DNA of 64,000 nucleotides from an uncultured virus (IMG/VR IMGVR_UViG_3300025421_000001) (taxonomy: Duplodnaviria; Heunggongvirae; Uroviricota; Caudoviricetes): the IMG/VR virus record IMGVR_UViG_3300025421_000001. The stretch is one strand, 5' to 3'. The position numbers and the translations under genes are program-made. Positions 4,833 to 29,526 of the stretch are shown here, piece after piece; position 1 is the stretch's first letter; each line of letters begins with the position of its first letter. The notes under the pieces are model-generated. The model was not told the origin of the DNA. It made no database searches and saw only the letters and a program-made list of their open reading frames with translations.

Positions 4833-6022
4833 TGGCGTCGGAACTAGTATCATTACCCTCAAGTGTTCTTAATAACGTTTATACGTTTTATGCAAACACT
4901 AATTCTCACAATCAAAACATAACTGGAATATCGGATGTTTCTAGAATTGGCGTTGGAATGCTTATTTCTGGGAGCTGCATAAGCCCAGGAACAACTGTGG
5001 TTTCAGTTGGTCAAAACTCAATAATCATAAGTGAGTCGCCAACACAAACACTTACTGGCGTAAATTTGACTGTTGGTGATTCTTCATATTTTGTAGATTC
5101 AATATATAACGCATTACCACAATTTATTCAAGATGGTGACGCAACCCAAGCACCTATACAATATCCAATGTATAAATATCTTTGGGGCATGGGTTCGATT
5201 GTAGAAAATCAAATTAACTCTTTGGTACAAGATGGAGCAGGAAAATTTGGATTTTACGATTCAGCGTATGCGTATGCACCAGGTTGGTCACAGGCTTTAG
5301 ATATTGATCGTTGCCCAGAATTTGCTCTGCCATGGCTTGCACAATTTGTGGGCGTAACATCTGAGTCTTTTGTTGAATTAAATCTTGCTCAGAAAAAAGA
5401 TAAGATTATTAATCGTTCCGGATTTCAAAGGGGAACGGGAAAAACTATCGTAAGTGCTCTTGTTACAGAAATTAACTACAAAACTGCCTCTCTTAATGAA
5501 ACACCTATAACTGCTGGTCAGGTAGTTGTTATGGAACAAACAGCATTGGCTACAGTATCATTTTTAGGCAACACAGCAAGTGGAAGCACCATTACTGGTA
5601 TAGTCAGCACATCTGGCCTTGCTAACGGAATGTATGTTTATGGTCCAGGCATTCCTGGAAATACAACAATTACAAATGTTTCTTCTAGTTCCATTACATT
5701 AAGTCACAATGTTACGTTGACACAAAATGGTGTTTCTTTTAATGCCACAACAGGAAAAACATACGTGCCAGACCAGTATGCTATGGTTGTTCTTATGCCA
5801 ACTGTTTATTTTAATAACTATTCATATGTAACATTGGCATCTTCATTGACCGGCAACGGTTCTGTTACCTATTCAACACTTGACAGTGCAATTAATGCAC
5901 TTGGTTCTAGCGGTTATGAAAACCTTTTTTTAGACTCTGTTCCAAAGTCAAATTCTGCTTTTGCACCATTCATTTATAAATATCGCCCTGCCGGTGTGCA
6001 GGTTTACGTTGGGGGCTATTAA
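4832..6022 (+). CDS. Baseplate/tail protein, P2 gpI-like
   Basis: LDIDRCPEFALPWLAQFVG motif; C-terminal YRPAGV; follows the J-like gene. Confidence 0.7.
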   Translation: MASELVSLPSSVLNNVYTFYANTNSHNQNITGISDVSRIGVGMLISGSCISPGTTVVSVGQNSIIISESPTQTLTGVNLTVGDSSYFVDSIYNALPQFIQDGDATQAPIQYPMYKYLWGMGSIVENQINSLVQDGAGKFGFYDSAYAYAPGWSQALDIDRCPEFALPWLAQFVGVTSESFVELNLAQKKDKIINRSGFQRGTGKTIVSALVTEINYKTASLNETPITAGQVVVMEQTALATVSFLGNTASGSTITGIVSTSGLANGMYVYGPGIPGNTTITNVSSSSITLSHNVTLTQNGVSFNATTGKTYVPDQYAMVVLMPTVYFNNYSYVTLASSLTGNGSVTYSTLDSAINALGSSGYENLFLDSVPKSNSAFAPFIYKYRPAGVQVYVGGY

Positions 6023-7218
6023 TGCCAAATACTTCACGACTGGGTCTTCACTACCCAGCAGCAAATGATCAAGCCAATATTCCTACGGATATACAAACTC
6101 TTGCAGGAGAGCTTGATTCTATTGTAACGGCTTTTTATCAATCGTCTTCTCAGCCAACCGCTGAGCAAGGAGCGCTTTGGTGGAACACGTCTACACAAAT
6201 TTTAAATTATTCAGATGGAACAACTTGGTATGCAGTATCTGATGAAATTATTGTTTCAACAACTACACCATCAGTTATATCTGCTGGTCAATTTTGGTTC
6301 AATCCAAATACAAGTCTTTTTCAATACTACAACGGTTCAACGTATCAAAACGTAATTCCAGCAATTACGGTTAATGGTCAATACTTAACGTCAAGTTCAA
6401 CTGGCCCCGTATGGACAACACTTCCATCGTCATTTCCACCAAATGGTTCGGCTGGCGGAGACTTGACAGGAACTTATCCAAATCCAACACTTTCTTCTGT
6501 TGGAACGGCAAACACATATGGTTCCGCAACAGCAATCCCAGTTATAACAACCGACTCAAAGGGTCGTGTAACTTCTGTTACAACTGCAACACCAAATGAC
6601 ACATCCAAACTTCCACTTACGGGTGGAACAATGTCAAATAGTATTGCAATGGGATCTAACAAGATTACTGGACTCGCAAACGGAACAACATCTACAGACG
6701 CAGCAGCTTTTGGTCAAATCCCTACTGCTCTTTCTCAACTTTCTGGAACGCTTGCGGTTTCTTCTGGTGGTACGGGTGTAACTAGTTCTACAGGAACTGG
6801 ATCAAACGTTCTTTCAATCAACTCAGTATTAACTGGTCCTCTTGAAAATGTAAACATTATTAACTCAGGTGCAAGTGGAACAATTAACGTCTATGCAGCT
6901 ACATCTACTATTAATTTTTACAATGCTAATTCAACCGGTAATTTTGTAATTAACGTAGCTGGAAGTTCTGGAGTAACCCTAAACAACCTTATGGCCGTAG
7001 GTCAGTCAATTACTGTTTCTGTCTTTAACACAAATGGTTCAACGGCTTACTACATGACTGGTTTTACAGTTGATGGAAATGCTATTACGCCAAAGTGGCT
7101 TGGTGCCTCTTCGCCTGGCGCTGGTGATGCAAACTCAACCGACATTTACACCTTTGTTATTATCAAAACAGCAGCCAATACTTACACCGTACTTGGCTCA
7201 TTGTCACAATTCGCTTAG
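6022..7218 (+). CDS. Tail fibre protein
   Basis: Ser/Thr/Gly-rich; ITTDSKGRVT and KITGLANGT repeats; C-terminal domain paralogous to that of 17821..22182. Confidence 0.75.
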   Translation: MPNTSRLGLHYPAANDQANIPTDIQTLAGELDSIVTAFYQSSSQPTAEQGALWWNTSTQILNYSDGTTWYAVSDEIIVSTTTPSVISAGQFWFNPNTSLFQYYNGSTYQNVIPAITVNGQYLTSSSTGPVWTTLPSSFPPNGSAGGDLTGTYPNPTLSSVGTANTYGSATAIPVITTDSKGRVTSVTTATPNDTSKLPLTGGTMSNSIAMGSNKITGLANGTTSTDAAAFGQIPTALSQLSGTLAVSSGGTGVTSSTGTGSNVLSINSVLTGPLENVNIINSGASGTINVYAATSTINFYNANSTGNFVINVAGSSGVTLNNLMAVGQSITVSVFNTNGSTAYYMTGFTVDGNAITPKWLGASSPGAGDANSTDIYTFVIIKTAANTYTVLGSLSQFA

Positions 7219-7227
7219 GATGTAATT

Positions 7228-8238
7228 ATGCCAATTATTGGAACTTCATCGGGGGATAGCGCAAGAGGAGAAGGTTTTCTTTACTTACAAGTTCCTCAGG
7301 CACCAATTAACGTCAGTGCTACAGTAATTGACACACAACACGTAAGTGTTTCTTTTACACCAGCACCTTACGGACCAGCTGCACGTAGCTTTACTGTCAC
7401 ATCCTCTGTTGGTGGATGGACCGCAACAGGAACATCAAGCCCAATAACAGTATTTATTAATACGCTATCAAGTGGACAAAGCTACAGTTTTACCGTTACG
7501 GCAAAGAATAAAATTGGAAGCAGTATCTCTAGCAACTCTAGTAATTCTGTTGTTCCATACACATATGTTCCACCTCCACCTCCACCACCGCCATACGTTC
7601 CGCCATACGTTCCGCCATACGTTCCGCCATACGTTCCGCCATACGTTCCGCCATATGTTCCGCCATATGTAGCACCATATGCTCCACCACCTTATACAGG
7701 TGGTGGTGGTTGCTTCCTTGTTGGAACACCGGTTCTCATGGCCGATGGTTCATACAGAGGAATTGAAACGCTCAAAGTTGCCGATCAACTCATGACCGCC
7801 GTAATTCCTACATATCCAAATGGAGAAAATCAAAGACTTTGGTATCCTGCCAGCGTTTGGTCGTTGCCAGAATCAGAAATTGGTGGAACAACACTCGGTT
7901 TAACAACCGTTGTTGCAACAAGAAAAGTTCTTATGACAGGGCATTATGTCATAAATGATGACATACTTGTTACGGGAGAACACTTTTTCTTTATAAACAG
8001 ATCAGGTATTTGGCAATTTATGAATGTATGGAGCATTCTTGAAGGCGACATTATGCTTAATAATGAGCTTAAAGAAGTTCCAGTCAGAAGCATTACAACT
8101 GTGTCAGGAATTACAAACGTTATTCAATTAACCGTTGGTCCAAACGACCTATTCTTTGGAAGTAATATACTTACACACAATACTAAGGTAAATCCTGGTG
8201 AGCCACCTCCAGCTCCAACAACAACAGCAACTTTCTAA
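7228..8238 (+). CDS. FN3 + extensin-like (PPYV)n linker + Hint (intein-like) domain protein
   Basis: Hint at 7711-8181: CFLVGTPVLMADGS, TGEH (block B), ILTHN followed by Thr. Confidence 0.85.
   Translation: MPIIGTSSGDSARGEGFLYLQVPQAPINVSATVIDTQHVSVSFTPAPYGPAARSFTVTSSVGGWTATGTSSPITVFINTLSSGQSYSFTVTAKNKIGSSISSNSSNSVVPYTYVPPPPPPPPYVPPYVPPYVPPYVPPYVPPYVPPYVAPYAPPPYTGGGGCFLVGTPVLMADGSYRGIETLKVADQLMTAVIPTYPNGENQRLWYPASVWSLPESEIGGTTLGLTTVVATRKVLMTGHYVINDDILVTGEHFFFINRSGIWQFMNVWSILEGDIMLNNELKEVPVRSITTVSGITNVIQLTVGPNDLFFGSNILTHNTKVNPGEPPPAPTTTATF
7588..7671 (+). repeat. 12-bp tandem repeat CCGCCATAYGTT x7 (PPYV)
   Basis: Five exact and two variant copies read directly. Confidence 0.95.
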
Positions 8239-8287
8239 ATTTTATTTAATTTAAATTGGGTATAGACTTTAAAACCTAGGAGGAACC

Positions 8288-8884
8288 ATGAAAGAAATAG
8301 CGCCAGGAATAATTCTATGGGACAACGTATTTCCAGAAGCATTAAAGCTTGTAGAGGAAATTGAAAGTACTCATAAAAATAAACAAAAATGTTGGGAACC
8401 GTCGATGGTCTACAATAAAGATGACGAACCAATTATTGATTCGTACTCAAGAAATTGTGAAATTTTTGGTATTCCCGACACTCTTTATGATTTTGTTCCA
8501 GAAGAAGACCACCCAGAATATTTTAAATTTACAATTTCAAATAAATTTAAAGAAGCATTTAGACCGTGTTACGAAGATTACATTAGTAAGTTTCATGTGG
8601 AAAACAATAATCAATATGATAATTACAGTATTTTAAAATACGGTTCTGGTCAAAAATTTATTAAACATGTTGATGATGGAAAAAAATGCCCTAGAAGAGT
8701 TTCTCTTGTTTACTACATAAATGATAATTATGAAGGCGGAGAAATAGTCTTCCCCAACTGGTCATTGAGCCTAAAGCCTAAAGCTAATCAACTTCTTATG
8801 TTTCCTTCTAATTTTATGTATGCTCATGAAGTTAAACCGGTTACAAATGGAACAAGGTATTCGGTGGTGCAATGGCTCTACTAG
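8288..8884 (+). CDS. 2OG-Fe(II) oxygenase, prolyl-4-hydroxylase-like
   Basis: HVD...YINDNYEGGE...HEV...R motifs. Confidence 0.9.
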   Translation: MKEIAPGIILWDNVFPEALKLVEEIESTHKNKQKCWEPSMVYNKDDEPIIDSYSRNCEIFGIPDTLYDFVPEEDHPEYFKFTISNKFKEAFRPCYEDYISKFHVENNNQYDNYSILKYGSGQKFIKHVDDGKKCPRRVSLVYYINDNYEGGEIVFPNWSLSLKPKANQLLMFPSNFMYAHEVKPVTNGTRYSVVQWLY

Positions 8885-9453
8885 AACCAAAAATTGTAGA
8901 AAATGTTTTTGATCAAGATTTTTATAATAAACTTTTTGAAGAATTTAAATCAAGTGCAAAAAGTGGTTATTATGAAGAAGGTTTTGGTCGTTACACACTT
9001 GGTCCAAGTGAGGAATCTGCGTTTAAAGAAGCTTTTGATAAGGCAGTAGAAATAGCAAGGGCTGTTTTTAACAAATCAACGCTACTTCCTAGTTACGCAT
9101 TTTTTGCACATTACGAAAAAAAGGGCAATGCTCTACCCTCTCTTTTGCATCACAGAGATGACAATGCCTGTACCTATACTCTGGACATGTGCGTGTATCA
9201 AACAGAGCCGTGGGATCTATATGTTGAAAATTCATCATATACTCTTTACCCAAATCAAGCTCTTGCATACTATGGCAATGATCAGGAACACTGGCGCAAC
9301 GATATGCCCAATCCTGAAGAGCAACACGTTGCAATGATATTTTTTCACTTTGTTGAGCCAGATCATTGGTTTTATAAAAAAGGTCCTTCTTATATAGAGG
9401 TTATTCGCGGAAATGTTTCGGAGGAATCATGGACTATGAATCACCAAAAGTAA
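8872..9453 (+). CDS. 2OG-Fe(II)/DSBH oxygenase-like protein
   Basis: HRD...EHWR...FFH; paralogue of 23840..24391. Confidence 0.7.
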   Translation: MALLEPKIVENVFDQDFYNKLFEEFKSSAKSGYYEEGFGRYTLGPSEESAFKEAFDKAVEIARAVFNKSTLLPSYAFFAHYEKKGNALPSLLHHRDDNACTYTLDMCVYQTEPWDLYVENSSYTLYPNQALAYYGNDQEHWRNDMPNPEEQHVAMIFFHFVEPDHWFYKKGPSYIEVIRGNVSEESWTMNHQK

Positions 9454-10160
9454 GGATTATAAAAAACTTTATTAATCTTGAAGACTGTCAGTTTATAATT
9501 GATTATGCAAAAAATCTAAAATTATGGAATTCTGGAAACGTCAATTCTGAAAGTCACCCAAACGAAGAACATTTAAAAGTTTTTAGCAATCAATGGGATG
9601 GAAGAATTGTTGATCTAAACGCCATTGTAGCAAAAAAAGAACACGATTCTTTTATAAAAAAAGTTTGGGAAATAAAAGAAAAATCAAAGTTTCAGGTAGA
9701 AGATTTCTTTAAAAAAGAGAATGTTTTCTTAGAAACATGGGAAGTTGTTCGTTGGTTTTATCCATACGATCAAAAACCCCACATTGATTACATTGAACCA
9801 GATTTCAACAGGAACACTGACGTTCCGGATAATTTGGATATGTCTTATTTTACAAAAGACGCTGAAGAAATCTATAGAATATATAACACAAAAAAACATT
9901 ACACAAGCATGCTTTATCTAAATGACGATTTCGAAGGCGGGGAGCTTTATTTCCCCACCTATAACAATTTTACAATAAAACCTGAACCAGGAATGCTTGT
10001 TGTATTTAGCGGTGACATAACCATGCCACACGGTATTAATCAAATAACTAGTGGAACTAGATATGTTAATACTGCTTTTTGGTGTCGCCATCCAAAAACA
10101 GGTTATTACGTTACAGAAAATCTTCAAACGGAAACGCTTGAAAAATATTGGGAACATTAA
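9429..10160 (+). CDS. 2OG-Fe(II) oxygenase, prolyl-4-hydroxylase-like
   Basis: HID...YLNDDFEGGELYF...HGI...R. Confidence 0.9.
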   Translation: MDYESPKVRIIKNFINLEDCQFIIDYAKNLKLWNSGNVNSESHPNEEHLKVFSNQWDGRIVDLNAIVAKKEHDSFIKKVWEIKEKSKFQVEDFFKKENVFLETWEVVRWFYPYDQKPHIDYIEPDFNRNTDVPDNLDMSYFTKDAEEIYRIYNTKKHYTSMLYLNDDFEGGELYFPTYNNFTIKPEPGMLVVFSGDITMPHGINQITSGTRYVNTAFWCRHPKTGYYVTENLQTETLEKYWEH

Positions 10161-10174
10161 ACAGAAAGAAACTA

Positions 10175-10660
10175 ATGACAGACGTTAGAGATAATATTGT
10201 TGCATGGGCTAAGTGGGCAGCCGCTAACCACGCTAAATTTAATTACACAGAAGGCCCACTACGCATGAGTGGTATTGGCAAGCCTGGCGTACTGCCAGTT
10301 AACGCTGACTGCTCTGCATTTGTAACTCTCTGCTACAACTGGGCTGGCGCTGCTGACCCTAACGGTATGGGCTACAACCACACTGGCTACACAGGCACAC
10401 TGCTTGCTCACGGTCAAAAGATTGCACTCAAGGACGTACAGCCTGGCGACGTTATCGTGTACGGCCCAGGAACCGGTTGGCACACTGCACTTGTTGTAGG
10501 TGTTGACGGTAGCAAGAACCCATTGACCATCTCCCATGGACAGGCCGGGGATCCGAGTTATTGCCACGTATCACAAGACGGACGACTTCCACAAACCTAT
10601 TTACGTTTCAACACTGCTGCCATAAACGACAAGAGCATACACACACCTCCAAAGGCATAA
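10175..10660 (+). CDS. NlpC/P60 cell-wall peptidase (endolysin-like)
   Basis: DCSAFV catalytic Cys, PGDVIVY, HTALV; ATG at 10175 preferred over the upstream TTG. Confidence 0.8.
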   Translation: MTDVRDNIVAWAKWAAANHAKFNYTEGPLRMSGIGKPGVLPVNADCSAFVTLCYNWAGAADPNGMGYNHTGYTGTLLAHGQKIALKDVQPGDVIVYGPGTGWHTALVVGVDGSKNPLTISHGQAGDPSYCHVSQDGRLPQTYLRFNTAAINDKSIHTPPKA

Positions 10661-22204: not shown

Positions 22205-23236
22205 ATGCCAATTAGAGATTCAGCTGGTGGGTTGTCTGCTGGTGGAGAAGGCGCTGATCGCCTATCAAAACCTACTGCCCCAACAAGCGTAACCCAAACA
22301 GTACTAAGCACAACACAGGTCTCCGTTGGTTGGACACACCCAGCCGGTGAACAACGTATTACAAGTTATAACATTCAAGTTTATAACATTAATACAGCTT
22401 CTGTTGTGGCCACTTTTACAGGTGTTACAACAAATCCTTACACGGTAAATTATTCATTCTTAGGTAACTATACATATGAATATGCCGTTCAGGCCGTAAA
22501 CGATTCAGGCGTTAGTCCTTACAGTGGATATAGTTCGACTGACGTACCAAATTACATTCCGCCACCATACACCCCACCTCCACCACCGCCAGTGCCGCCA
22601 TACGTTCCGCCATACGTTCCGCCATACGTTCCGCCATATGTTCCGCCGCCGGTTCCGCCGCCGGTTCCGCCGCCAGTGCCACCACCAGTTCCACCACCAG
22701 TTCCACCACCGGCACCGCCGCCAGTTTGTTTTGTTGTTGGAACACCGGTTCTCATGGCCGATGGTTCATACAGGAAAATTGAAGAACTTGTTGCTGGAGA
22801 TTTGTTAATGACCGCCCATGTTCCTACTTTCCCTAATGGAGAGGCTTCGAATAAGTGGTACCCGGCAGATGTTTGGTCGTTGCCAGAATCAGAAAATACT
22901 GGTTTTGTCAGCGAAATAACTGCTGTTAAAAATAACGAAATAACAACAATGACTGGCTACTACAAATTCAATGACAGAATTTCTGTAACAGGAGATCACT
23001 TTCACCTTATTAAACGAGATGGTTCGTGGCAGTTTGCCCGCTCTTGGTCAATTAAGGTAGGGGATTCATTCCTTACAGAAAGCCTTGAAGAAGAAGTTAT
23101 TGAAAAAGTTGAACTTATCAATGAAGAAGTTAAGGTTTCTGTTCTTTCAGTGGGAACAGAAGAATATCCAAATAACTTGTTTTTTGGATCTGGAATCTTA
23201 ACTCACAACTTCAAAGTAAAGCTTTCAACTTTTTAA
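22205..23236 (+). CDS. FN3 + extensin-like poly-Pro linker + Hint domain protein (paralogue 2)
   Basis: Hint at 22727-23209: CFVVGTPVLMADGS, TGDH, ILTHN followed by Phe. Confidence 0.85.
   Translation: MPIRDSAGGLSAGGEGADRLSKPTAPTSVTQTVLSTTQVSVGWTHPAGEQRITSYNIQVYNINTASVVATFTGVTTNPYTVNYSFLGNYTYEYAVQAVNDSGVSPYSGYSSTDVPNYIPPPYTPPPPPPVPPYVPPYVPPYVPPYVPPPVPPPVPPPVPPPVPPPVPPPAPPPVCFVVGTPVLMADGSYRKIEELVAGDLLMTAHVPTFPNGEASNKWYPADVWSLPESENTGFVSEITAVKNNEITTMTGYYKFNDRISVTGDHFHLIKRDGSWQFARSWSIKVGDSFLTESLEEEVIEKVELINEEVKVSVLSVGTEEYPNNLFFGSGILTHNFKVKLSTF
22595..22726 (+). repeat. 12-bp repeats encoding (PPYV)4 then (PPPV)n
   Basis: Read directly. Confidence 0.9.
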
Positions 23237-23252
23237 AAAAAATACAACTGGT

Positions 23253-23303: not shown

Positions 23304-23322
23304 ACCATCTTGGAGGACAAAA

Positions 23323-23847
23323 ATGATTAACCAAGAAACACTTATAGAATGGATTTATTCAGATAACCCTAAACCCCTTGTGGTTAAGGGCATTTTCCCA
23401 AATGCACCCGATTGGGATTCCCTGGCAAAACACAGAGAAGCATCATTGAAATCACCAATGATTGAAAAGAAAGACAAAAACCTTTACCTTGTTTATTTAA
23501 ACACAGACACTAAAGACTTTTTTGAAATAATCCCTGGATCAGAACTCGTTTATAACGAGTTAAAAAAACTTTTTAACTGTCGAATTGAAGGTCCTTCAAT
23601 AATTTTATGTGATTCCAAAGATGGTCTTACGGGCTTTCCTAAACATAAAGATCCAGAAATAACTATTCACTGGTGCATGTATGGTTCTGCAAAGTGGACT
23701 TTTTGGGATAAAAACGATAAAACATGTGAGGTTATGGTTGAAAAAGGCGATCTTATATTTGTGCCCATTGACACTGATCACGAGGTTGAAACACTAAGCG
23801 ATAAGCGTGCGGGCGCCTTATTTGGAGCAATGTATATTCGTGAATAA
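23323..23847 (+). CDS. Cupin/JmjC-like oxygenase
   Basis: HKD...GSAKW...GDLIFVP..HEV. Confidence 0.7.
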   Translation: MINQETLIEWIYSDNPKPLVVKGIFPNAPDWDSLAKHREASLKSPMIEKKDKNLYLVYLNTDTKDFFEIIPGSELVYNELKKLFNCRIEGPSIILCDSKDGLTGFPKHKDPEITIHWCMYGSAKWTFWDKNDKTCEVMVEKGDLIFVPIDTDHEVETLSDKRAGALFGAMYIRE

Positions 23848-24391
23848 TAGACCTGATCCTATAGTTCTAAAAGATTTTATTCACCCTAATCTTTATGGCA
23901 CTCTTCGCGATTTTTTAAAAGCAGATGCAAAAACTTTTGAGTATCACGAAGCGGCCGGAAGATATCGCACAAAGTCGGGGCCAAGAAACATTGTTGAGGA
24001 ATTTCTAAACCTACACATATTCATGGCAAGATCAATTTTTAAAAGCGAAACACTTCTCCCCACCTATGGCGCTTTTCTACATTACGAATCTAAAGATGGT
24101 ATTAATCCCAACCTTCCACCGCACAGAGATGACAATGCCTGTACCTATAACATTGGGATTTGTCTTTATCAGACCGAACCATGGGATTTGTACATTGAGG
24201 GTGTTAAATACACCTTAGAACCAAACGATGCTGTTGCTTTCTATGGTGAAGATCAAGAGCACTGGCGACCAGCACCACCTAGCGAAGATGGTCACTGGGG
24301 CATGGTTTGGTTTCACTATGCTGAACCAGATCACTGGTATTTTACCAAAGGCTCAGATTACATAAATGTTTTAAGAGGACAAATTGTCTGA
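23840..24391 (+). CDS. 2OG-Fe(II)/DSBH oxygenase-like protein
   Basis: HRDDNACTY..YQTEPWDLY..QEHWR, shared with 8872..9453; GTG start inferred. Confidence 0.7.
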   Translation: MNNRPDPIVLKDFIHPNLYGTLRDFLKADAKTFEYHEAAGRYRTKSGPRNIVEEFLNLHIFMARSIFKSETLLPTYGAFLHYESKDGINPNLPPHRDDNACTYNIGICLYQTEPWDLYIEGVKYTLEPNDAVAFYGEDQEHWRPAPPSEDGHWGMVWFHYAEPDHWYFTKGSDYINVLRGQIV

Positions 24392-25070
24392 AGCACCAAT
24401 AAATAAAGAAGCTTACGAAAAAGGTTATCTTACTTTTCGTGGTTTAGATTTCCTCATAGGTCCCGGTGCCTACGCAGAAATAGGTGATTTTAATTACTTT
24501 TTAGATGAGGCTAAAAAAACCTTAGACAAGTCGCCAGTCATCCTCGATCTTTGTTGCGGAACTGGAATGATTGGCATTGCTTTGGCAAATGAAATACCCA
24601 ACGCTACGGTTTACGGTGTGGAAAAATATCCAGAACCTTTTGTATGGACAATAAGAAATTCTAAAAATTTTGAAAAACAATTGTCTAAAATTGGATCAAA
24701 ATTTATCCCCGTATTTACTAGCGCAATTAACTCCGTAGATATATTAAGAGAATTAGAGGGTAAGGTAAACCTTGTCATATCTTCTTGCCCAACTGGCGCA
24801 GAAGAAGAGTCTTCAGATTTATCATTTATTCCCTGGATCAAAGAAACAATGATTGCGCCTGAGGGCGGTCTGGGAGTTTTAAAAGAACTAGAAAGTGCAT
24901 CTTTGTTCTTTCTTAAAGAAGACGGCGCTATCTTTACAACTGTAGGAGAAAGAAGCTATGATGAAGTATCAAGGCTTTTTGATCTTTCTATTTGGAATCC
25001 AATAAACTTTGATCCTGACCAATGGATGTCTACAAGTAAATGTTTGAAGAATACTCACAACCCCCTTTAA
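24384..25070 (+). CDS. HemK/PrmC-like SAM methyltransferase
   Basis: LDLCCGTG motif I, GGL..., FLKEDG; NPPY position replaced by SCPT. Confidence 0.7.
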   Translation: MSEAPINKEAYEKGYLTFRGLDFLIGPGAYAEIGDFNYFLDEAKKTLDKSPVILDLCCGTGMIGIALANEIPNATVYGVEKYPEPFVWTIRNSKNFEKQLSKIGSKFIPVFTSAINSVDILRELEGKVNLVISSCPTGAEEESSDLSFIPWIKETMIAPEGGLGVLKELESASLFFLKEDGAIFTTVGERSYDEVSRLFDLSIWNPINFDPDQWMSTSKCLKNTHNPL

Positions 25071-25720
25071 ATGCAAAAGCATATGAAGATGGGTTTTATC
25101 ATTTTCGTGGCATAGAGATATCTTGTGGTTCAGGTGCTTTTGTTGAAGTAGGTGACTTAGACTATTTCTTTAATAAAATTAAATATAATATATCCCCCGG
25201 CGATAAAAAAATTATTTTCGATATAGGTTCCGGTACCGGAATGTTAGGTATCCCAATGGCACTAGAAGTGCCAAAATCGACTATATATGGACTTGAACCT
25301 AATCGTAAAGCATTTTATTGGACAGCATATAACTCGTATGTATATGAAAAAGAAATTGCAAAAAAAGAATCAATCTTTCACCCGATAGAGCTCAGCGCCT
25401 CCGAGGCCGTGCGCGACATGTCAGATCTAAAGGGAACCGCTGACGTGGTTATGTCAAGTTGCGCGTGGGTACCGCTGCCAAAGTCTCTAGACTTCAGCAA
25501 CATGCCATACGGCGTAGACGCCGTTTATGCGGGCGAAGATGGCCTGGACATGATACGAGAAGTCGTATCGGCTGCAAATTTCTTCCTAAAACCTGGCGGT
25601 ATGTTATTTATGACAACGCCAGTAATAATGTTTGACAGAGTAAAGCCTTTGTTGTCGGAACTAGAATGGTCTGAAATCACACAGGATTCAGATGACTTTT
25701 TGTATACTAAAAAAATTTAG
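25040..25720 (+). CDS. HemK/PrmC-like SAM methyltransferase (paralogue)
   Basis: DIGSGTG, AGEDGLDMIREVV...LKPGG; NPPY position replaced by SCAW. Confidence 0.75.
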   Translation: MFEEYSQPPLNAKAYEDGFYHFRGIEISCGSGAFVEVGDLDYFFNKIKYNISPGDKKIIFDIGSGTGMLGIPMALEVPKSTIYGLEPNRKAFYWTAYNSYVYEKEIAKKESIFHPIELSASEAVRDMSDLKGTADVVMSSCAWVPLPKSLDFSNMPYGVDAVYAGEDGLDMIREVVSAANFFLKPGGMLFMTTPVIMFDRVKPLLSELEWSEITQDSDDFLYTKKI

Positions 25721-25744
25721 TTACATTATACTTTGTGCATCCCC

Positions 25745-25773
25745 TTGACTTATAAGCAGAAATAATGTATCCT
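25745..25773 (+). promoter_or_regulatory. Sigma70-type promoter
   Basis: TTGACT-17 nt-TATCCT, then GGAGG SD. Confidence 0.6.
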
Positions 25774-25792
25774 TAATTTGGAGGTTTTTCAC

Positions 25793-26368
25793 ATGATATC
25801 AATAAACCATAATTTTTTAAGCCCGACAGAAGTAACAACTCTTTTAAATTTTGCCATTAATGATGCTCCAAAAGACTGGAACATAAATGAGGATTACTAC
25901 TTTTGGAAAAACAGAACCCTTGAAGCTGAGGTAATTAAAAGCCTGGGGCCACAATACGAAAACATTGTCAACATACTTGTTAATGCACGCAAGAGAATCA
26001 AGCAACATATTGTAGATATTCGTGGCCTAACGGTGCCTCTTTACGCAGACACTCTACAGATTGTGCGCTGGCCAGAAGGCTACGAGCAGCCTCCGCACGC
26101 AGACGCAGAAACAAATGACGGTGGACCGCACCCGTACTCTTGGCGATACTCTGCCTCCATCTGCTATCTAAACGACAATTTTGATGGTGGAGAGATTTAC
26201 TTCCCACAACATGATCTTTCCATAAAACCTTCACCTGGAACAATGGTTACATTTCCTGGAACTGCTGAGTACCTTCATGGTGTGCGTGGCGTAAAGAATG
26301 GAGTGCGTTACACAACTGCATCATTCTTTACCACGGACCCGACAAAAGCAGACATTTGGCCAATATGA
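25793..26368 (+). CDS. 2OG-Fe(II) oxygenase, prolyl-4-hydroxylase-like
   Basis: HAD...YLNDNFDGGEIYF...HGV...RY. Confidence 0.9.
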   Translation: MISINHNFLSPTEVTTLLNFAINDAPKDWNINEDYYFWKNRTLEAEVIKSLGPQYENIVNILVNARKRIKQHIVDIRGLTVPLYADTLQIVRWPEGYEQPPHADAETNDGGPHPYSWRYSASICYLNDNFDGGEIYFPQHDLSIKPSPGTMVTFPGTAEYLHGVRGVKNGVRYTTASFFTTDPTKADIWPI

Positions 26369-27126
26369 GCAGTATTCCCATCAATAAACCTGGAGCAGAG
26401 ATTCCAGAAAAAACTTTGGTTGTCTTACCACAGCCAGGCAGAAGCAAAGAAACAATAGCCAAACTTCTCGATCCACTCAACGGTCAAAAGACTCGTGACT
26501 GGTGGCACTCACACTTCTACTACTGCCTCCCCCTTGCTATTGGTAATCAATACGGATTTGTCATTAGAGCTGCTTACGACTTCTCGCTTTACTGGAACGG
26601 TGGTTTAAGAAACGAAGATTTGAAAGTAGAGTGCAACCTTCCTCAATATGAACTTCAAAATTATGAAGCACACTTTGGAAGCGGCATCGTTACAGTTCAA
26701 AACCTATGGGTTATGAGAACCCCACCGGGCGTAAACATAATGACCATGCAACCGCCAAATTTCCTAAAACCAGGTATCATGCACCTCTCAGCTGTCGTTG
26801 AGACAGATAACCTGCGCAGAGACTTCACCTTTAACATGAAGGTAACAGAGCCAAATAGATGGATTCACTTTAAAGCAGGTGAGCCTGTAGGTGCTTTTGT
26901 TTGCATACCAAGGCATTTTATTGATGAGTTCAAGGTAGCCTTTGCCGACGAACTATTTAATGAAGAACAAATCCAATGGGAACAAGACGTTCAGATCGAA
27001 TTCTCCAGACAACGCAGTCGTGAGGATAAGGACAAACCGCATGAGGCAGGTCGTCGATACTTTAGAGGTGAGGATGCTTGGGGTAATGAGTTCCCAGATC
27101 ACCAGATAATCGTTAAGAGGAAATAA
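26356..27126 (+). CDS. DUF6065-like protein
   Basis: YCLPLAIGNQYGF, VETD; family recognised by motif only; true start may be slightly downstream. Confidence 0.65.
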   Translation: MANMSSIPINKPGAEIPEKTLVVLPQPGRSKETIAKLLDPLNGQKTRDWWHSHFYYCLPLAIGNQYGFVIRAAYDFSLYWNGGLRNEDLKVECNLPQYELQNYEAHFGSGIVTVQNLWVMRTPPGVNIMTMQPPNFLKPGIMHLSAVVETDNLRRDFTFNMKVTEPNRWIHFKAGEPVGAFVCIPRHFIDEFKVAFADELFNEEQIQWEQDVQIEFSRQRSREDKDKPHEAGRRYFRGEDAWGNEFPDHQIIVKRK

Positions 27127-27911
27127 TGGAAAAACCCTACATCAATACCGAAGGTAACTACATTCCAGAAAAAGTTCTTTTGGTCAGAGTACCAGAAGAA
27201 TACAATACCCCTGAAAGAAAAGAACAGTTTCTTGAAATTCTAAAACCTATGGCTGGTTGGAAAAAAAGAGATTGGTTTGAAAGTGCAATGTACAAATGTC
27301 TTCCGCTAACAATTGGAAATCAATACGGTTTTCAAATTGTAGCTGAATACGATTTTTCAGTTATTTGGAATGGCGGGTTACATTCAAACGACACCATTGT
27401 TGACGTTGGCCCAGACTTTGATCCAGAAAAATACCTTCAAAATGTAAAGGCTTGGTTTGGTTGGGGCGTAGTTACCATTGAAATGGAATGGAACTTAAGA
27501 GCCGCACCCGGCGTAAACCTTATGACCATACAAACGCCTAATTACTTTAAAAGTGGAATTCATCACACAACTGGCGTCATTGAGCTTGACAACCTCGAAA
27601 GAAATTTTATCTTTAACTTTAAAATAACTGAGCCAAACAGACTTATTGAATTTAAAAAAGGCGAGCCAATTGCAGCTTTTATTCTCTTACCAAGACATTA
27701 TGTTGATGAATTTGAGATTGTCTTTGCAGACGAGCTTTTTACAAAAGAACAACTTGAAATGGAAGCTGAATTAGGCGCTAAATGGCATCAAATGCGCAAT
27801 GACGAGAGCATAAAGAGCCGTTTTGGTCGCTATTTCCGTGGAGAATTGGTAAAGGGTGGTGATTACTTTGATCATCAGGCAACCGTTAAACCATATAAAA
27901 GAAAAAAATGA
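27126..27911 (+). CDS. DUF6065-like protein (paralogue)
   Basis: KCLPLTIGNQYGF. Confidence 0.65.
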   Translation: MEKPYINTEGNYIPEKVLLVRVPEEYNTPERKEQFLEILKPMAGWKKRDWFESAMYKCLPLTIGNQYGFQIVAEYDFSVIWNGGLHSNDTIVDVGPDFDPEKYLQNVKAWFGWGVVTIEMEWNLRAAPGVNLMTIQTPNYFKSGIHHTTGVIELDNLERNFIFNFKITEPNRLIEFKKGEPIAAFILLPRHYVDEFEIVFADELFTKEQLEMEAELGAKWHQMRNDESIKSRFGRYFRGELVKGGDYFDHQATVKPYKRKK

Positions 27912-28651
27912 ACGATAAAGTAACCCTATATTACGACTCAAATCCAGAGTACGAAGGGAATCTTATAGAGTCTGCTTCTCAGATAATCCCAGATTGGTAC
28001 AAACAAGTACCTAGAATTTTTTCTGATAAAGATGGTTCTGAAATACCATCCGTTAAGCACTGCCTTCCTTTTATTGAGGCACTGTCAATTGGCTATCTTA
28101 TCCTTACGCCTGAGGATTATAAAGTAGAAAAGAGATTTTCTCAAGGTATTTTTATTGAATCAGAAAACGAAACGCTGGGAACAAGAAACACAAATGATAT
28201 TGGCAATATGCCTATTCCCGCTGGGTATAACAGAATTCAACACACATGGCAACACAGGCTCGCCATAGACATTCCAGAAGGATATAGCGTTCTGTTTACA
28301 AACCCACTAAATCGCTTTGACACGCCTTTTATGACCTTTTCGGCGGTTGTTGACGGTCCCTACAAAATGCCCCCAGGCGGTATTGCATTTTGTATTAGGG
28401 ACGATTTTGAAGGGGTTATACCGGCAGGAACACCCTATGCACAAGCCATACCGTTTAAAAGAGATGATTTTAATATGGTTAAAAAAGAAGGTCTTGTACA
28501 GGAAGCACGCGGAATTCTTGAAACCATATTTCAAAAGGCAAAAAATTACACTGAAGAGTGGACTGGTTTAAAAAATAATTATCGCATTAATAGTTGGCAC
28601 AAAAAATCTTACAAGTTAGACAAAGGAAAAAACGATGAGCTCGTTCTCTAA
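27908..28651 (+). CDS. DUF6065-related protein
   Basis: KHCLPFIEALSIGY...PLNRF...GVIPAGTPYAQ.IP. Confidence 0.55.
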   Translation: MNDKVTLYYDSNPEYEGNLIESASQIIPDWYKQVPRIFSDKDGSEIPSVKHCLPFIEALSIGYLILTPEDYKVEKRFSQGIFIESENETLGTRNTNDIGNMPIPAGYNRIQHTWQHRLAIDIPEGYSVLFTNPLNRFDTPFMTFSAVVDGPYKMPPGGIAFCIRDDFEGVIPAGTPYAQAIPFKRDDFNMVKKEGLVQEARGILETIFQKAKNYTEEWTGLKNNYRINSWHKKSYKLDKGKNDELVL

Positions 28652-28814
28652 TAGTTTTCAAAACATCCCAAATTATGGCGGTACCGACATCCGTTATTTT
28701 ACCCCTCAACCTGGCGAAGTAAACGTTGGTGCTCAGTGCGCAAAACTTGTTGCAATGGATCTAGGCAACATGGAAGATGTTCTTAACTACCTAGGCATTA
28801 ATCCAGAAGAATAG
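28635..28814 (+). CDS. 59-aa small protein (not in ORF track)
   Basis: AAAGGA SD; MSSFSNSFQNIPNYGGTDIRYF...; fills the gap between two paralogues. Confidence 0.6.
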   Translation: MSSFSNSFQNIPNYGGTDIRYFTPQPGEVNVGAQCAKLVAMDLGNMEDVLNYLGINPEE

Positions 28815-28815
28815 A

Positions 28816-29526
28816 ATGAGCGATCCAATCAGGTTTTTTTATGAGAGCCTTCCCGGTTCTGAGGAAAGCCTAGTATCATCAGCACGATCCGTGCCTCAAT
28901 GGTTTAAAGAAATACCAAGAGTATTTAAAAACAATGACGGGGAAAACGTTCCAACGGCAAAACATTGCTTTCCCTTCATAGAAGCTTTTACAACGGGATA
29001 CCTTCTTTTAACCCCTGAAGACTATGTGGTTAGTCGAGTGGAAGACGGCAAAGCAACTATATCCTCAGAAACTACAATCATCCCAGAAAGAAACCCCAAA
29101 ACTATTGGAGATATGCCATCTCCAAGCGGTTACAGGAAAGAAAGTTTTTCATGGCCCTACAGTTTTGGTATAGATATACCTACTGATTGCAGCATTATAT
29201 TTACACAACCTTTTAATCGATTTGAGTTACCCTTTATTACTATTACCGGCATAATTGATGGTCCTTACGTTTTTAGTCCAGGTTATTTAGGTTTTTATAT
29301 TAGAGAAGATTTTGAGGGAGTTATACCAATGGGAACTCCTTATGCACAAGTTATCCCAATAAAAAAACAAGACTTTACAATGGAGAGTAAAACGGGTATC
29401 CTTGATAATCAGTTAACAGAATTCATTGATCCATTTCAAGATGATTCAAAATATAGTGATATCCTTATGAGCAATAAGGATTATTACCGCAGAAAAGTTT
29501 GGCAAAAGAAAAAATACAATATATAG
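28816..29526 (+). CDS. DUF6065-related protein (paralogue of 27908)
   Basis: KHCFPFIEAFTTGY...GVIPMGTPYAQVIP. Confidence 0.55.
   Translation: MSDPIRFFYESLPGSEESLVSSARSVPQWFKEIPRVFKNNDGENVPTAKHCFPFIEAFTTGYLLLTPEDYVVSRVEDGKATISSETTIIPERNPKTIGDMPSPSGYRKESFSWPYSFGIDIPTDCSIIFTQPFNRFELPFITITGIIDGPYVFSPGYLGFYIREDFEGVIPMGTPYAQVIPIKKQDFTMESKTGILDNQLTEFIDPFQDDSKYSDILMSNKDYYRRKVWQKKKYNI

What the first reader, a model, noticed from the sequence alone, without database searches (positions are those of the whole stretch)
6022..29526. Duplicated fibre / FN3-polyPro-Hint / oxygenase module: candidate virion-protein maturation system
Seen: the same gene order occurs twice (6022-10160 and 17821-29526). Each copy starts with a fibre sharing one C-terminal domain (..F.IIKTAA.TYTVL.S). 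Directly after comes an FN3 + Pro-rich + Hint protein, then 2OG-Fe(II) oxygenases, including a clear paralogue pair (8872 and 23840, HRDDNACTY). Copy 2 adds a cupin, two PrmC-like methyltransferases and four DUF6065-like proteins, and a GT2-methyltransferase fusion lies just downstream. Inference: a self-processing fibre-tip protein plus enzymes that hydroxylate, methylate or glycosylate it. This would be a phage version of extensin/collagen maturation. I do not know it as a characterised system, but I could not check the literature.
Basis: partly seen in the sequence, partly recalled or inferred. Interest (0 to 1): 0.9.

Follow-up and report, generated by a model that had tools for sequence, protein, structure and literature searches.

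The report
Phage proline-repeat Hint proteins with hydroxylases
An uncultured phage, probably of actinobacteria, encodes two tail-region proteins that carry a stiff proline/tyrosine repeat capped by a self-cleaving domain, each followed by prolyl-hydroxylase-like enzymes, and this pairing recurs in many related phage fragments, so the repeat is a testable candidate target for these unexplained phage enzymes.

Summary
Three gene pairs are true paralogues: the fibre C-terminal domain (E 6e-26), FN3-(PPYV)n-Hint (E 2e-55) and a 2OG-oxygenase-fold protein (E 1e-60). The enzymes, however, are not duplicated. Three relatives with one Hint gene carry one contiguous cassette. The window splits that cassette between its two Hint genes.

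The three PF13640 oxygenases keep HxD...H...R, and prolyl hydroxylases dominate their solved matches. The Hint domain has Cys1, TxxH and a terminal HN, but no conserved +1 nucleophile. That fits BIL-type cleavage, not splicing.

Linkage is conserved. In 12 of 13 distinct loci of this Hint subfamily, a P4H-like or GT60 gene lies within four ORFs downstream. Of 54 clusters of the '8872' family, 46 have a P4H-like gene directly upstream. Of the 43 clusters with enough upstream DNA, 38 have a Pro-rich ORF upstream.

The collagen fibres are poor targets, with Pro at Y in 5 of 458 triplets. DUF6065 has a dUTPase-like fold, not a cupin fold. 'PrmC-like' is unsupported.

No chemistry is shown, so substrate assignment rests on inference. 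The scan noted this system earlier in eight findings on other genomes. Seven literature searches found no paper on it.

The parts
6022..7218 (+). Fibre-like protein A (398 aa). It has no collagen repeats. It shares three segments, including the C-terminal domain, with fibre B.
   Evidence: BLASTP E 6e-26, 6e-18 and 2e-11. phrog_5906 E 6e-24.
7228..8238 (+). FN3-(PPYV)n-GGGG-Hint protein A (336 aa). Hint starts at Cys162 and ends in THN, followed by an 18-aa tail.
   Evidence: Pfam fn3 and Hom_end_hint. Alignment shows C1, TGEH and THN. 25 Pro in the 60 aa before the Cys. 12-bp tandem repeat.
8288..8884 (+). P4H-like 2OG-Fe(II) oxygenase 'a' (198 aa)
   Evidence: PF13640 at 69.2 bits. Best PDB matches are PHD2/EGLN1 and B. 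anthracis P4H. HVD...H...R is present. Orthologues are L003_2714, L005_11100 and L083_9591.
8872..9453 (+). 2OG-oxygenase-fold protein of the phrog_2954-like family, type II (193 aa)
   Evidence: phrog_2954 E 7e-16. Family alignment shows invariant H..D...H. Orthologues are L003_3313, L005_11696 and L083_10256.
9429..10160 (+). P4H-like 2OG-Fe(II) oxygenase 'b' (243 aa)
   Evidence: PF13640 at 36.8 bits. PDB matches are P3H1 and B. anthracis P4H. HID...H...R is present.
17821..22182 (+). Collagen-like fibre B (1453 aa) with the C-terminal domain shared with fibre A
   Evidence: Pfam Collagen E 3.6e-79. 182 GXY triplets, with Gln at Y in 138 and Pro at Y in 0.
22205..23236 (+). FN3-(PPYV/PPPV)n-Hint protein B (343 aa). 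Hint starts at Cys175 and ends in THN, followed by an 8-aa tail.
   Evidence: Pfam fn3 E 2.3e-7 and Hom_end_hint E 2.2e-4. Alignment. 39 Pro in the 60 aa before the Cys.
23323..23847 (+). Small cupin, probably a JmjC-type oxygenase (174 aa)
   Evidence: Pfam ARD and Cupin_2. Its orthologues in L005, L119 and L132 hit JmjC_2 at E 1e-8 to 9e-10. HKD...H is present.
23807..24391 (+). 2OG-oxygenase-fold protein of the phrog_2954-like family, type I (194 aa; the true start may be the ATG near 23840)
   Evidence: AF2 model pLDDT 91.9. Foldseek best matches are P. putida P4H and PHD2, TM 0.55-0.62.
24384..25720 (+). Two paralogous class-I SAM methyltransferases (228 and 226 aa) of unknown specificity
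   Evidence: Weak Pfam MTS and other hits below cut-off. The two are 38% identical, E 3e-49. HemK matches only at E 0.07. No NPPY motif. Absent from L003, L005 and L083.
25778..26368 (+). P4H-like 2OG-Fe(II) oxygenase 'c' (196 aa)
   Evidence: PF13640 at 39.4 bits. PDB matches are P3H1 at 4e-8 and P4H. HAD...H...R is present.
26356..27911 (+). Two DUF6065 proteins (256 and 261 aa) with a dUTPase-like fold
   Evidence: PF19541 at 149 and 126 bits. AF2 pLDDT 89.7. VIA-align Z 10.6 to dUTPase.
27908..29526 (+). Two phrog_7084 proteins (247 and 236 aa), distant kin of DUF6065
   Evidence: phrog_7084 E 3e-28 and 8e-27. The same family follows the GT60 or P4H genes in L008, L087, L088 and L009.
29929..31170 (+). 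GT2 glycosyltransferase fused to a methyltransferase (413 aa)
   Evidence: Pfam Glycos_transf_2 E 8e-11 and Methyltransf_11 E 5e-6.

Best explanation
The region is the tail/baseplate late operon of a phage. Its two WhiB genes suggest an actinobacterial host. The operon encodes two paralogous accessory proteins. Each is built as an FN3 domain, then a 40-60-residue Pro/Tyr/Val repeat (PPYV, PPPV), then a C-terminal Hint domain.

Inferred mechanism:
1. While the precursor is being made, the co-transcribed P4H-like 2OG-Fe(II) oxygenases hydroxylate prolines of the repeat. There are three of them. The two phrog_2954-like oxygenase-fold proteins and the small JmjC-like cupin may assist. In this lineage two methyltransferases and a GT2-MTase fusion may add further groups.
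2. The Hint domain makes an N-to-S acyl shift at the X-Cys junction. The thioester is resolved by hydrolysis or by transfer, which frees the FN3-stalk. Cyclisation of the terminal Asn drops the 8-18-residue tail.
3. The mature, modified stalk protein joins the tail-fibre apparatus.

Shown by sequence: the domain architecture, the catalytic residues, the paralogy, the operon packing and the conserved linkage.
Inferred: that the repeat is the substrate, that the Hint domain cleaves, and that the product sits in the virion.

The two 'modules' are one ancestral enzyme cassette divided between two substrate genes.
For: Hint domain:
- Cys1, T-G-D/E-H and T-H-N are invariant across 3 sequences.
- The A7 profile matches a solved Hint domain (6y75, E 6e-10) and a bacterial intein-like domain (2lwy, E 1.3e-6).
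- 2374 library representatives match at E<=1e-3.
- In 107 of the best 150, HN lies within the last 45 residues. The tail has a median of 5 aa and the +1 residue is mostly K, A, I, V, L or F.

Oxygenases:
- PF13640 scores above cut-off three times.
- Solved sequence matches are mostly prolyl 3/4-hydroxylases and PHDs, with a few weaker PKHD-type hydroxylase (PiuC, Sbal_3634) rows.
- HxD...H...R is intact.
- The 23807 family has a 2OG-oxygenase fold nearest to P4H and PHD2.

Linkage by comparative genomics:
- I counted 13 distinct Hint-subfamily loci with at least 3 kb downstream: window A and B, L003, L005, L083, L008, L086, L087, L088, L009, L085, L089 and L010.
- In 12 of them a P4H-like or PF11397/GT60 gene lies within four ORFs after the Hint gene. 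L010, which has no repeat linker, has none.
- Pro count in the 60 aa before the Hint Cys tracks the number of oxygenase-type genes. Spearman rho is 0.82 for n=14, not corrected for phylogeny.

Reverse search with the 23807 family:
- 556 relatives were found in IMG/VR, and the best 80 loci were examined.
- They form 54 clusters at 90% identity. In 46 of 54 a P4H-like gene lies directly upstream.
- 43 clusters have at least 2.5 kb upstream. In 38 of them a Pro-rich ORF (12 or more Pro in 30 aa) lies within five ORFs upstream. In 0 of 43 does one lie downstream.
- The background is 9 Pro-rich ORFs among 781 in unrelated phage loci.

Other support:
- Those cassettes also hold GT60, O-FucT-like, sugar-nucleotide epimerase/dehydratase, UDP-glucose dehydrogenase, carbamoyltransferase and JmjC genes.
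- GT60 Gnt1 glycosylates the hydroxyproline made by a P4H on Skp1 (PMC6939170, passage read).
- The genes overlap on one strand inside the structural operon.
Against: - No chemical evidence of any modification or cleavage exists.
- The loci are related phages, so shared synteny inflates the counts. The correlation is not phylogenetically corrected.
- L015, with a PT-rich linker of 18 Pro in 60, has no P4H-like gene within 9 ORFs.
- Five of 43 clusters have no Pro-rich ORF upstream. Three of these (L132 second copy, L161, L166) still have a P4H-like gene.
- A fourth P4H-like gene (48793-49401) lies far from any repeat gene, among non-structural genes.
- The 23807-family fold also matches AlkB and small-molecule oxygenases at similar TM.
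- DUF6065 and phrog_7084, the most constant partners, have a nucleotide-enzyme fold that this model does not explain.
- Pfam Hint and fn3 hits are below the curated cut-offs in copy A.
Confidence: 0.55

Rival explanations
1. Hot-spot neighbours only. The oxygenases, methyltransferases and sugar enzymes are auxiliary 'moron' genes that collect at the variable end of the fibre module. They act on host targets or small molecules: host proteins such as EF-Tu or ribosomal proteins, cell-wall glycans or metabolites. The Pro-rich linkers would simply be common in fibres of these phages.
For: - PHROGs files these families under 'moron, auxiliary metabolic gene'.
- The nearest fold match, P. putida P4H, is solved in complex with EF-Tu (4iw3).
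- One P4H-like gene (48793-49401) sits away from the structural genes.
- The loci are related, so synteny alone could give high co-occurrence.
- L015 has a PT-rich linker and no oxygenase.
Against: - The pairing holds although the repeat type, the protein length (194-1352 aa) and the flanking domains change completely.
- Enzyme type follows linker type. Pro-dense linkers go with 3 P4H-like genes. Tyr-rich, Pro-poor linkers go with GT60 and no P4H-like gene. A locus with no repeat has none.
- When the cassette is split in this window, each half keeps a Hint-repeat gene directly upstream.
- The Pro-rich ORF lies upstream in 38 of 43 clusters and downstream in 0 of 43.
Confidence: 0.2
2. The enzymes tailor the collagen-like fibres rather than the Hint proteins. 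Candidate reactions are hydroxylation of X-position Pro, Asn or Lys, or methylation of the abundant Gln.
For: - Four collagen-like fibre genes lie in the same operon.
- Collagen genes lie upstream of the cassette in L005 and L083 and in many 23807-family loci (COL labels).
- Gln fills the Y position in 341 of 458 triplets. The methyltransferases align weakly with HemK, a Gln methyltransferase, at E 0.07.
Against: - Pro at Y, the collagen P4H site, occurs in only 5 of 458 triplets. Lys at Y occurs in 3 of 458.
- L008, L086, L087, L088, L009 and L085 keep Hint plus enzymes with no collagen gene among the ORFs examined.
- The methyltransferases lack NPPY and are absent from L003, L005 and L083.
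Confidence: 0.12
3. The oxygenases act on nucleic acids, as AlkB-type repair or TET/JBP-type base modification. DUF6065 would then handle nucleotides.
For: - PHROG labels include 'DNA endonuclease' families for the same proteins.
- AlkB appears among the fold matches of the 23807 family.
- DUF6065 has a dUTPase / dCTP-deaminase-like fold.
Against: - Solved sequence matches of the three PF13640 proteins are prolyl hydroxylases and a few PKHD-type hydroxylases, with no AlkB or TET.
- The genes lie in the structural operon, not the replication module.
- The cassettes carry protein O-glycosyltransferase-type genes (GT60, O-FucT-like).
Confidence: 0.05
4. RiPP-like product. The repeat would be a precursor that the Hint domain releases as a free, modified peptide or polymer, not as a virion part.
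For: The layout is a short-period repeat, a self-cleaving cap and a battery of tailoring enzymes.
Against: - The repeat stays fused to an FN3, PASTA or Ig-type domain after N-terminal Hint cleavage.
- No protease or exporter gene was found among the cassette ORFs that Pfam scanned.
- The position is inside fibre and baseplate genes.
Confidence: 0.05

Closest known systems
Chlorovirus PBCV-1 prolyl 4-hydroxylase (vCPH, PDB 5c5t) with that virus's own Pro-rich repeat proteins
   Same: A virus encodes both a small monomer-type P4H and proteins with short-period Pro-rich repeats. 5c5t appears among the fold matches of the 23807 family and among the weak sequence matches of 8288.
   Different: This is a phage, not a eukaryotic virus. 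It carries a battery of three P4H-like genes plus three other oxygenase-fold genes placed directly after the repeat gene. The repeat is capped by a Hint domain. That PBCV-1 P4H hydroxylates such repeats in vitro (Eriksson et al. 1999) is recalled, not read here. The structure paper (PMC4613865) was not held.
Skp1 hydroxyproline glycosylation pathway (PhyA P4H then Gnt1, CAZy GT60) of Dictyostelium and Toxoplasma
   Same: A cytoplasmic P4H is followed by a GT60 enzyme that puts GlcNAc on the new Hyp (PMC6939170, passage read). Relatives of this locus carry PF11397 'GlcNAc' glycosyltransferases directly after the Hint-repeat gene or after the P4H / 23807-family pair.
   Different: The window itself has no PF11397 gene, only a GT2-MTase fusion. 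The candidate target is a repeat, not a single Pro. That PF11397 equals the GT60/Gnt1 family is recalled, not shown by a call.
Bacterial intein-like (BIL) and pretoxin Hint domains; Hedgehog Hog domain
   Same: A Hint fold with Cys1, TxxH and a terminal HN, used for cleavage rather than splicing. The A7 profile hits 2lwy (BIL) and 6y75. The junction is Gly-Cys-Phe, as in Hedgehog (recalled).
   Different: The domain sits at the very C-terminus with only a 5-18-aa tail, so it releases the upstream part. No toxin domain or sterol-recognition region follows. It carries a subfamily-specific insert, PTYPNGE...WYPxSVWS.
Virion O-glycosylation in mycobacteriophages
   Same: Actinobacterial phages that encode glycosyltransferases thought to modify their own structural proteins. 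Only search listings were seen, for example PMC11256854.
   Different: That system involves capsid and tail-tube glycosylation by GTs alone. No prolyl hydroxylases, repeat stalks or Hint domains appear in the listings I saw. The primary paper was not read.
Plant extensin / HRGP maturation
   Same: A Pro/Tyr-rich polyproline-II repeat is paired with P4H and, in relatives, with glycosyltransferases.
   Different: There is no Ser-Pro4 motif. The process would be cytoplasmic, with no secretory pathway. Tyr cross-linking is untested. The resemblance is by analogy only (recalled).

Membership tests
Hint / intein superfamily (BIL-type) | N-terminal Cys/Ser nucleophile and block-B TxxH | tested here: met
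   C162/C175 and TGEH/TGDH are invariant in the window A, window B and L003 proteins.
Hint / intein superfamily (BIL-type) | C-terminal His-Asn | tested here: met
   THN in all three sequences. HN lies within the last 45 aa in 107 of 150 best representatives.
Hint / intein superfamily (BIL-type) | Significant profile match to a solved Hint or BIL domain | tested here: met
   A7 against PDB: 6y75 at E 6e-10 and 2lwy at E 1.3e-6. The Pfam Hom_end_hint hits (21.7-21.8 bits) are below the 32.1 cut-off.
Splicing intein | +1 Cys/Ser/Thr nucleophile and a C-extein to be ligated | tested here: not met
   The +1 residue is T (copy A), F (copy B) and I (L003). Among 107 representatives it is K 21, A 15, I 14, V 11, L 9, F 8, S 4, T 1 and C 0.
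Prolyl 4-hydroxylase-type 2OG-Fe(II) oxygenase (PF13640) | Pfam score above the gathering cut-off | tested here: met
   69.2, 36.8 and 39.4 bits against 27 for 8288, 9429 and 25778.
Prolyl 4-hydroxylase-type 2OG-Fe(II) oxygenase (PF13640) | HxD...H iron triad and a 2OG-binding Arg | tested here: met
   HVD, HID and HAD, each with a distal H and GTRY/GVRY, read from the translations.
Prolyl 4-hydroxylase-type 2OG-Fe(II) oxygenase (PF13640) | Hydroxylates peptidyl proline | not testable with these tools
   Only indirect evidence: the solved sequence matches are mostly prolyl hydroxylases, plus a few PKHD-type hydroxylases.
Collagen P4H substrate | Pro in the Y position of Gly-X-Y | tested here: not met
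   5 of 458 triplets in the four collagen-like fibres. Gln fills 341 of 458.
PrmC/HemK protein-Gln methyltransferase | NPPY catalytic motif and a family-level match | tested here: not met
   No NPPY. 'SSC' stands at the corresponding place. Pfam MTS scores 22.5 and 22.0 bits against 23. HemK chains match at E 0.07.
DUF6065 (PF19541) | Pfam score above cut-off | tested here: met
   149.2 and 125.9 bits against 26.6 for 26356 and 27126. The proteins at 27908 and 28816 have no Pfam hit and match only phrog_7084. A5 against A6 by hhalign gives E 0.042.
dUTPase / dCTP-deaminase fold | Shared fold | tested here: met
   VIA-align Z 10.6 (1dun, 119 aa aligned, rmsd 3.7). 12 chains score Z>=8, mostly dUTPases. 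Foldseek E 9e-5.
dUTPase / dCTP-deaminase fold | dUTPase catalytic motifs and activity | not tested
   Sequence identity is 7-18%. The motifs were not examined.
Hyp-O-glycosylation pathway (P4H + GT60) | GT60 (PF11397) glycosyltransferase next to the P4H or the substrate gene | tested here: inconclusive
   Present in L008, L086, L087, L088, L114 and L135. Absent from the 34 window ORFs scanned.

The most novel reading that the evidence does not exclude
The Hint domain is more than a removable cap. Its thioester would be used to graft the C-terminus of the hydroxylated (and, in relatives, glycosylated) polyproline stalk covalently onto another molecule. The acceptor could be a virion protein or a host cell-wall component. 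This would be a phage counterpart of Hedgehog-type C-terminal ligation. The DUF6065/phrog_7084 proteins, with their dUTPase fold, would be a new class of partner in that chemistry, for example by handling a uridine-nucleotide-linked group.
Probability: 0.1. Interest if true: 0.9.

Novelty: new variant of a known kind. Interest (0 to 1): 0.66.

Why it matters
2OG-Fe(II) 'prolyl hydroxylase' genes are among the commonest unexplained auxiliary genes of aquatic phages. Here, and in the related contigs examined, they sit directly after a gene whose product carries a Pro-containing repeat. The kind and number of enzymes follow the kind of repeat. This gives the enzymes a concrete, cheaply testable candidate substrate.

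If confirmed, it would be, as far as my seven searches show, the first reported prolyl hydroxylation of a phage structural protein. In relatives that would extend to Hyp-linked glycosylation. It would also assign a role to a widespread family of C-terminal Hint domains: 503 library representatives at E<=1e-10. It could further explain how these phages vary or protect their adhesion stalks.

Tried and rejected
- Megablast of the whole region against 50,697 phage records found no match. A tblastn of Hint B found only an intein-type hit in Phage NCTB.
- The window's own assembly is not held. The nearest record, G001, has no Hint match.
- A word-index protein search with the Hint part of protein B found nothing at E<=1e-3. 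The exhaustive profile search did find matches.
- The idea that DUF6065 is another cupin or oxygenase was rejected on fold.
- The idea that the two modules are duplicate enzyme sets was rejected on orthology.
- The idea that the collagen fibres are the P4H substrate was rejected on composition.
- Single-sequence PDB searches for 23807 and 26356 gave nothing useful. The L005 cupin gave only E 0.19-0.68 to JmjC ribosomal oxygenases.
- The genome-contig scan found only 27-34% relatives, in Flavobacterium and other MAGs. It gave no host clue.
- The wider metagenome Hint relatives (26-34% identity) mostly lack the enzymes.
- PHROGs gave no family for the ~255-aa and ~310-346-aa cassette proteins of the 23807-family loci.
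- Seven literature searches found no paper describing the system.

Full report
**What is in the window.** All genes from 1327 to 32698 lie on the + strand. They are tightly packed and often overlap: 8872 starts before 8884 ends, 9429 before 9453, 26356 before 26368, and 27908 before 27911.

- Pfam and PHROGs identify a tail/baseplate operon. It contains a collagen + tail-collar fibre (2-1246) and a gp25-like baseplate wedge protein (1327-2028). Three further collagen-like fibres follow at 13411-15741, 15844-17721 (with CBM5/12) and 17821-22182. A CHAP/NlpC peptidase lies at 10148-10660.
- The second half of the window holds replication and recombination genes and two WhiB-like regulators. WhiB points to an actinobacterial host. 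That is my inference from what is known of WhiB, not a tool result.
- G+C is about 0.42.
- No phage record resembles the region at the DNA level.
- A metagenome contig of 87,784 bp carries both Hint genes, one at 100% identity, so it is probably the same phage (L173 and L178).

**Check of the observation.** The three claimed paralogue pairs are real.

| Pair | Identity | E-value |
|---|---|---|
| Fibre C-terminus, 6022-7218 vs 17821-22182 | 50% over 168 aa | 6e-26 |
| Hint proteins, 7228-8238 vs 22205-23236 | 54% over 164 aa | 2e-55 |
| 8872-9453 vs 23807-24391 | 45% over 178 aa | 1e-60 |

- The fibres share two more segments.
- Both Hint proteins read FN3, then a Pro/Tyr/Val repeat, then Cys-Phe...Thr-His-Asn and a short tail.
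- The repeats are coded by 12-bp tandem DNA repeats.
- Pfam confirms three PF13640 oxygenases, a cupin, two DUF6065 proteins and a GT2-methyltransferase fusion.

**The main correction: the enzymes are split, not duplicated.**

- Three diverged relatives with a single Hint gene (L003, L005, L083; Hint 47-52% identical) carry one contiguous cassette. Its order is cupin, 23807-type, P4H-a, 8872-type, P4H-b, phrog_7084, P4H-c, DUF6065, DUF6065. L005 lacks the first 23807-type gene.
- Bit scores assign each window gene to one position in that cassette. Window 8288 is P4H-a (204-223 bits to its orthologues, against 42-63 to the others). Window 9429 is P4H-b (249-291). Window 25778 is P4H-c (152-191). 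Window 8872 matches the second 2OG-fold gene (242-263). Window 23807 matches the first (184-200).
- So module A holds the middle of the cassette and module B holds both ends. Module B also has two lineage-specific methyltransferases and an extra phrog_7084 gene.
- Only the fibre C-terminal domain and the Hint gene are duplicated.

**The Hint domain.**

- Cys1, T-G-(D/E)-H and T-H-N are invariant.
- The +1 residue is T, F or I.
- A profile of the domain finds 2374 library representatives at E<=1e-3, 503 at E<=1e-10 and 16 at E<=1e-30.
- In 107 of the best 150, HN lies within the last 45 residues. The tail has a median of 5 residues. The +1 residue is mostly K, A, I, V, L or F, with S 4, T 1 and C 0.
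- The closest solved sequences are a Hint domain (6y75, E 6e-10) and a bacterial intein-like domain (2lwy, E 1.3e-6).
- This fits N-terminal, and probably C-terminal, cleavage rather than splicing.
- A subfamily with the insert PTYPNGE...WYPxSVWS includes the window's proteins.
- In that subfamily a short-period low-complexity linker and a Gly run usually precede the Hint domain. Linker types include PPYV, YYAAP, VSPVG, IIATPV, PPPYNNTYNN and PPSF.

**The enzymes.**

- The three PF13640 proteins keep HxD...H...R.
- Their solved sequence matches are mostly prolyl hydroxylases: PHD2/EGLN1, B. anthracis P4H, P3H1, algal P4H and PBCV-1 P4H. A few weaker rows are PKHD-type hydroxylases (PiuC, Sbal_3634).
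- The 23807/8872 family has no Pfam hit. Its model is confident (pLDDT 91.9) and shows a 2OG-oxygenase fold. The nearest matches are P. putida P4H and PHD2, but AlkB and small-molecule oxygenases score similarly (TM 0.55-0.62). H-x-D and two distal His are invariant in 30 sequences.
- The cupin's orthologues hit JmjC_2.
- DUF6065 is not an oxygenase. Its model (pLDDT 89.7) has a dUTPase / dCTP-deaminase-like fold. Foldseek gives E 9e-5. VIA-align gives Z 10.6, and 12 chains reach Z>=8, mostly dUTPases.
- The two methyltransferases are paralogues (38% identity) with only sub-threshold Pfam hits. They have no NPPY motif, and HemK matches at E 0.07.

**Which protein is the target?** The collagen-like fibres are poor candidates. 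Of 458 Gly-X-Y triplets, 341 have Gln at Y and 5 have Pro at Y. The Hint proteins carry 25 and 39 Pro in the 60 residues before the Hint Cys.

**Conserved linkage, forward direction.** I counted 13 distinct Hint-subfamily loci with at least 3 kb downstream: window A and B, L003, L005, L083, L008, L086, L087, L088, L009, L085, L089 and L010. In 12 of them a P4H-like or PF11397 'GlcNAc' glycosyltransferase gene lies within four ORFs after the Hint gene.

| Linker type | Loci | Genes that follow |
|---|---|---|
| Pro-dense, 33-45 Pro in 60 | L003, L005, L083, L176 | three P4H-like, one or two 23807-type, one cupin |
| Tyr-rich, 8-10 Pro in 60 | L008, L086, L087, L179 | PF11397 + phrog_7084, no P4H-like gene |
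| VSPVG-type, 14 Pro in 60 | L088 | PF11397 + phrog_7084, no P4H-like gene |
| 9-15 Pro in 60 | L085, L089, L009 | two P4H-like genes |
| No repeat | L010 | none of these |

- Spearman rho between Pro count and the number of oxygenase-type genes is 0.82 for n=14.
- L084 and L179 were left out because they have fewer than 4 downstream ORFs. L009 and L152 were left out because my pattern did not find the Hint start.
- The loci are related, so this is descriptive only.
- L015 is an exception. It belongs to a different Hint subfamily and has a PT-rich linker with 18 Pro in 60, yet no such genes within 9 ORFs.
- A phrog_7084 protein follows the enzymes in L008, L087, L088 and L009 and, by my local HMM, in L179, L181 and L182.

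**Conserved linkage, reverse direction.**

- The 23807 family has 556 relatives in IMG/VR. I examined the best 80 loci.
- They hold 84 family genes in 54 clusters at 90% identity.
- In 46 of 54 clusters a P4H-like gene lies directly upstream.
- 43 clusters have at least 2.5 kb upstream. In 38 of them an ORF with 12 or more Pro in some 30-residue window lies within five ORFs upstream. In 0 of 43 does one lie downstream.
- Such ORFs make up 9 of 781 in unrelated phage loci and 61 of 922 in these loci.
- The five misses are L132 (second copy), L136, L159, L161 and L166. L136 and L159 also lack the P4H-like gene.
- The Pro-rich proteins are very diverse. Repeat types include (PT)n, (APTPV)n and (PPV)n. 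Lengths range from 194 to 1352 aa. Most end in Cys-rich modules rather than Hint.
- Their cassettes also hold DUF6171, PF11397, O-FucT-like, JmjC and methyltransferase genes. NAD-dependent epimerase/dehydratase, UDP-glucose dehydrogenase and carbamoyltransferase genes occur as well.
- GT60 Gnt1 adds GlcNAc to the hydroxyproline that a P4H makes on Skp1 (PMC6939170, passage read). That PF11397 is this family is recalled.

**Limits.**

- No modification or cleavage is shown.
- Synteny among related phages inflates every count.
- The wider Hint family (26-34% identical), found in marine contigs and Flavobacterium genomes, mostly lacks the enzymes.
- A fourth P4H-like gene (48793-49401) lies outside the structural operon.
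- The dUTPase-like partners are unexplained.

**Prior knowledge.**

- Seven searches found no paper on Pro-repeat/Hint proteins with hydroxylases in phages, and none that mentions DUF6065.
- The scan's own earlier notes describe the same kind of system in eight findings on other genomes. These are AI notes, not independent evidence. I reached the same reading before seeing them, and I re-tested the linkage and the dose trend on my own loci.
- New here: the split cassette with two substrate genes, the dUTPase-like fold of DUF6065, and the Gln-rich, Pro-poor make-up of the collagen fibres.

**Verdict.** The system is best filed as a new variant of virus-encoded prolyl hydroxylation of the virus's own Pro-rich repeats, combined here with a BIL-type Hint cap. 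My confidence that the repeat is the enzymes' substrate is about 0.55.

Noticed in passing
window 26356-29526; L008:5474-6238, L087:9550-10275, L088:3438-4163, L009:5417-6127: DUF6065 proteins have a dUTPase / dCTP-deaminase-like fold (Z 10.6), modelled for the protein at 26356. The related phrog_7084 proteins are the most constant partner of the Hint-repeat genes, whether the neighbouring enzyme is a P4H or a GT60. Their role is unexplained. DUF6065 itself is a large family, with at least 1103 clusters.
   Followed up: partly
window 2-1246, 13411-15741, 15844-17721, 17821-22182: The four collagen-like fibres use Gly-X-Gln triplets. Gln is at Y in 341 of 458 triplets and Pro at Y in 5. One fibre (15844-17721) also carries a CBM5/12 carbohydrate-binding module.
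   Followed up: partly
window 24384-25720: Two paralogous methyltransferases align end to end, though not significantly (E 0.07), with HemK, a Gln-N5 methyltransferase. They lack NPPY. Given the Gln-rich collagen repeats, Gln methylation is an untested thought. The genes are absent from L003, L005 and L083.
   Followed up: partly
window 48793-49401: A fourth P4H-like 2OG oxygenase (HMD...H...R) lies among non-structural genes, far from any Pro-repeat gene.
   Followed up: no
window 60758-61450 and 63476-63913 (- strand): A glycosyltransferase and a Nol-like carbamoyltransferase fragment lie at the window's end. Carbamoyltransferase and sugar-nucleotide enzymes sit inside the P4H cassettes of related phages (L101).
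   Followed up: no
L096, L101, L120, L153, L162 and others: Most Pro-repeat fibre proteins next to the P4H / 23807-family pair end in a small Cys-rich module, not in a Hint domain. An example ending is ...CCPSGFGGS.DCWSGGAGTAC. Several begin with a conserved VSPL(E/Q)RFPSGIG motif.
   Followed up: no
L099, L101, L110, L119 (ORF directly before the P4H gene); L010, L086, L087: A small DUF6171 protein of about 80 aa is conserved between the repeat gene and the P4H gene in many loci. It was not detected among the 34 window ORFs scanned.
   Followed up: no
L212, L215, L216, L221, L224, L226-L228, L231, L235, L237, L250: In marine contigs with distant Hint relatives, a P4H-like protein of about 450 aa lies a few ORFs downstream of the Hint region. 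Where a Hint ORF was called (for example L212, L227, L231) it carries Thr/Ser/Trp-rich repeats.
   Followed up: no
window 41744-42295; 32684-33067 (-) and 42307-42741: An HslV-family peptidase and two WhiB-like regulators lie in the replication half of the window.
   Followed up: no
L009:2426-3178 and L085:8501-9253: In two Hint loci the gene directly after the Hint protein is an APS-kinase-like P-loop protein followed by DUF2061. This hints at sulfation or phosphorylation chemistry in those variants.
   Followed up: no
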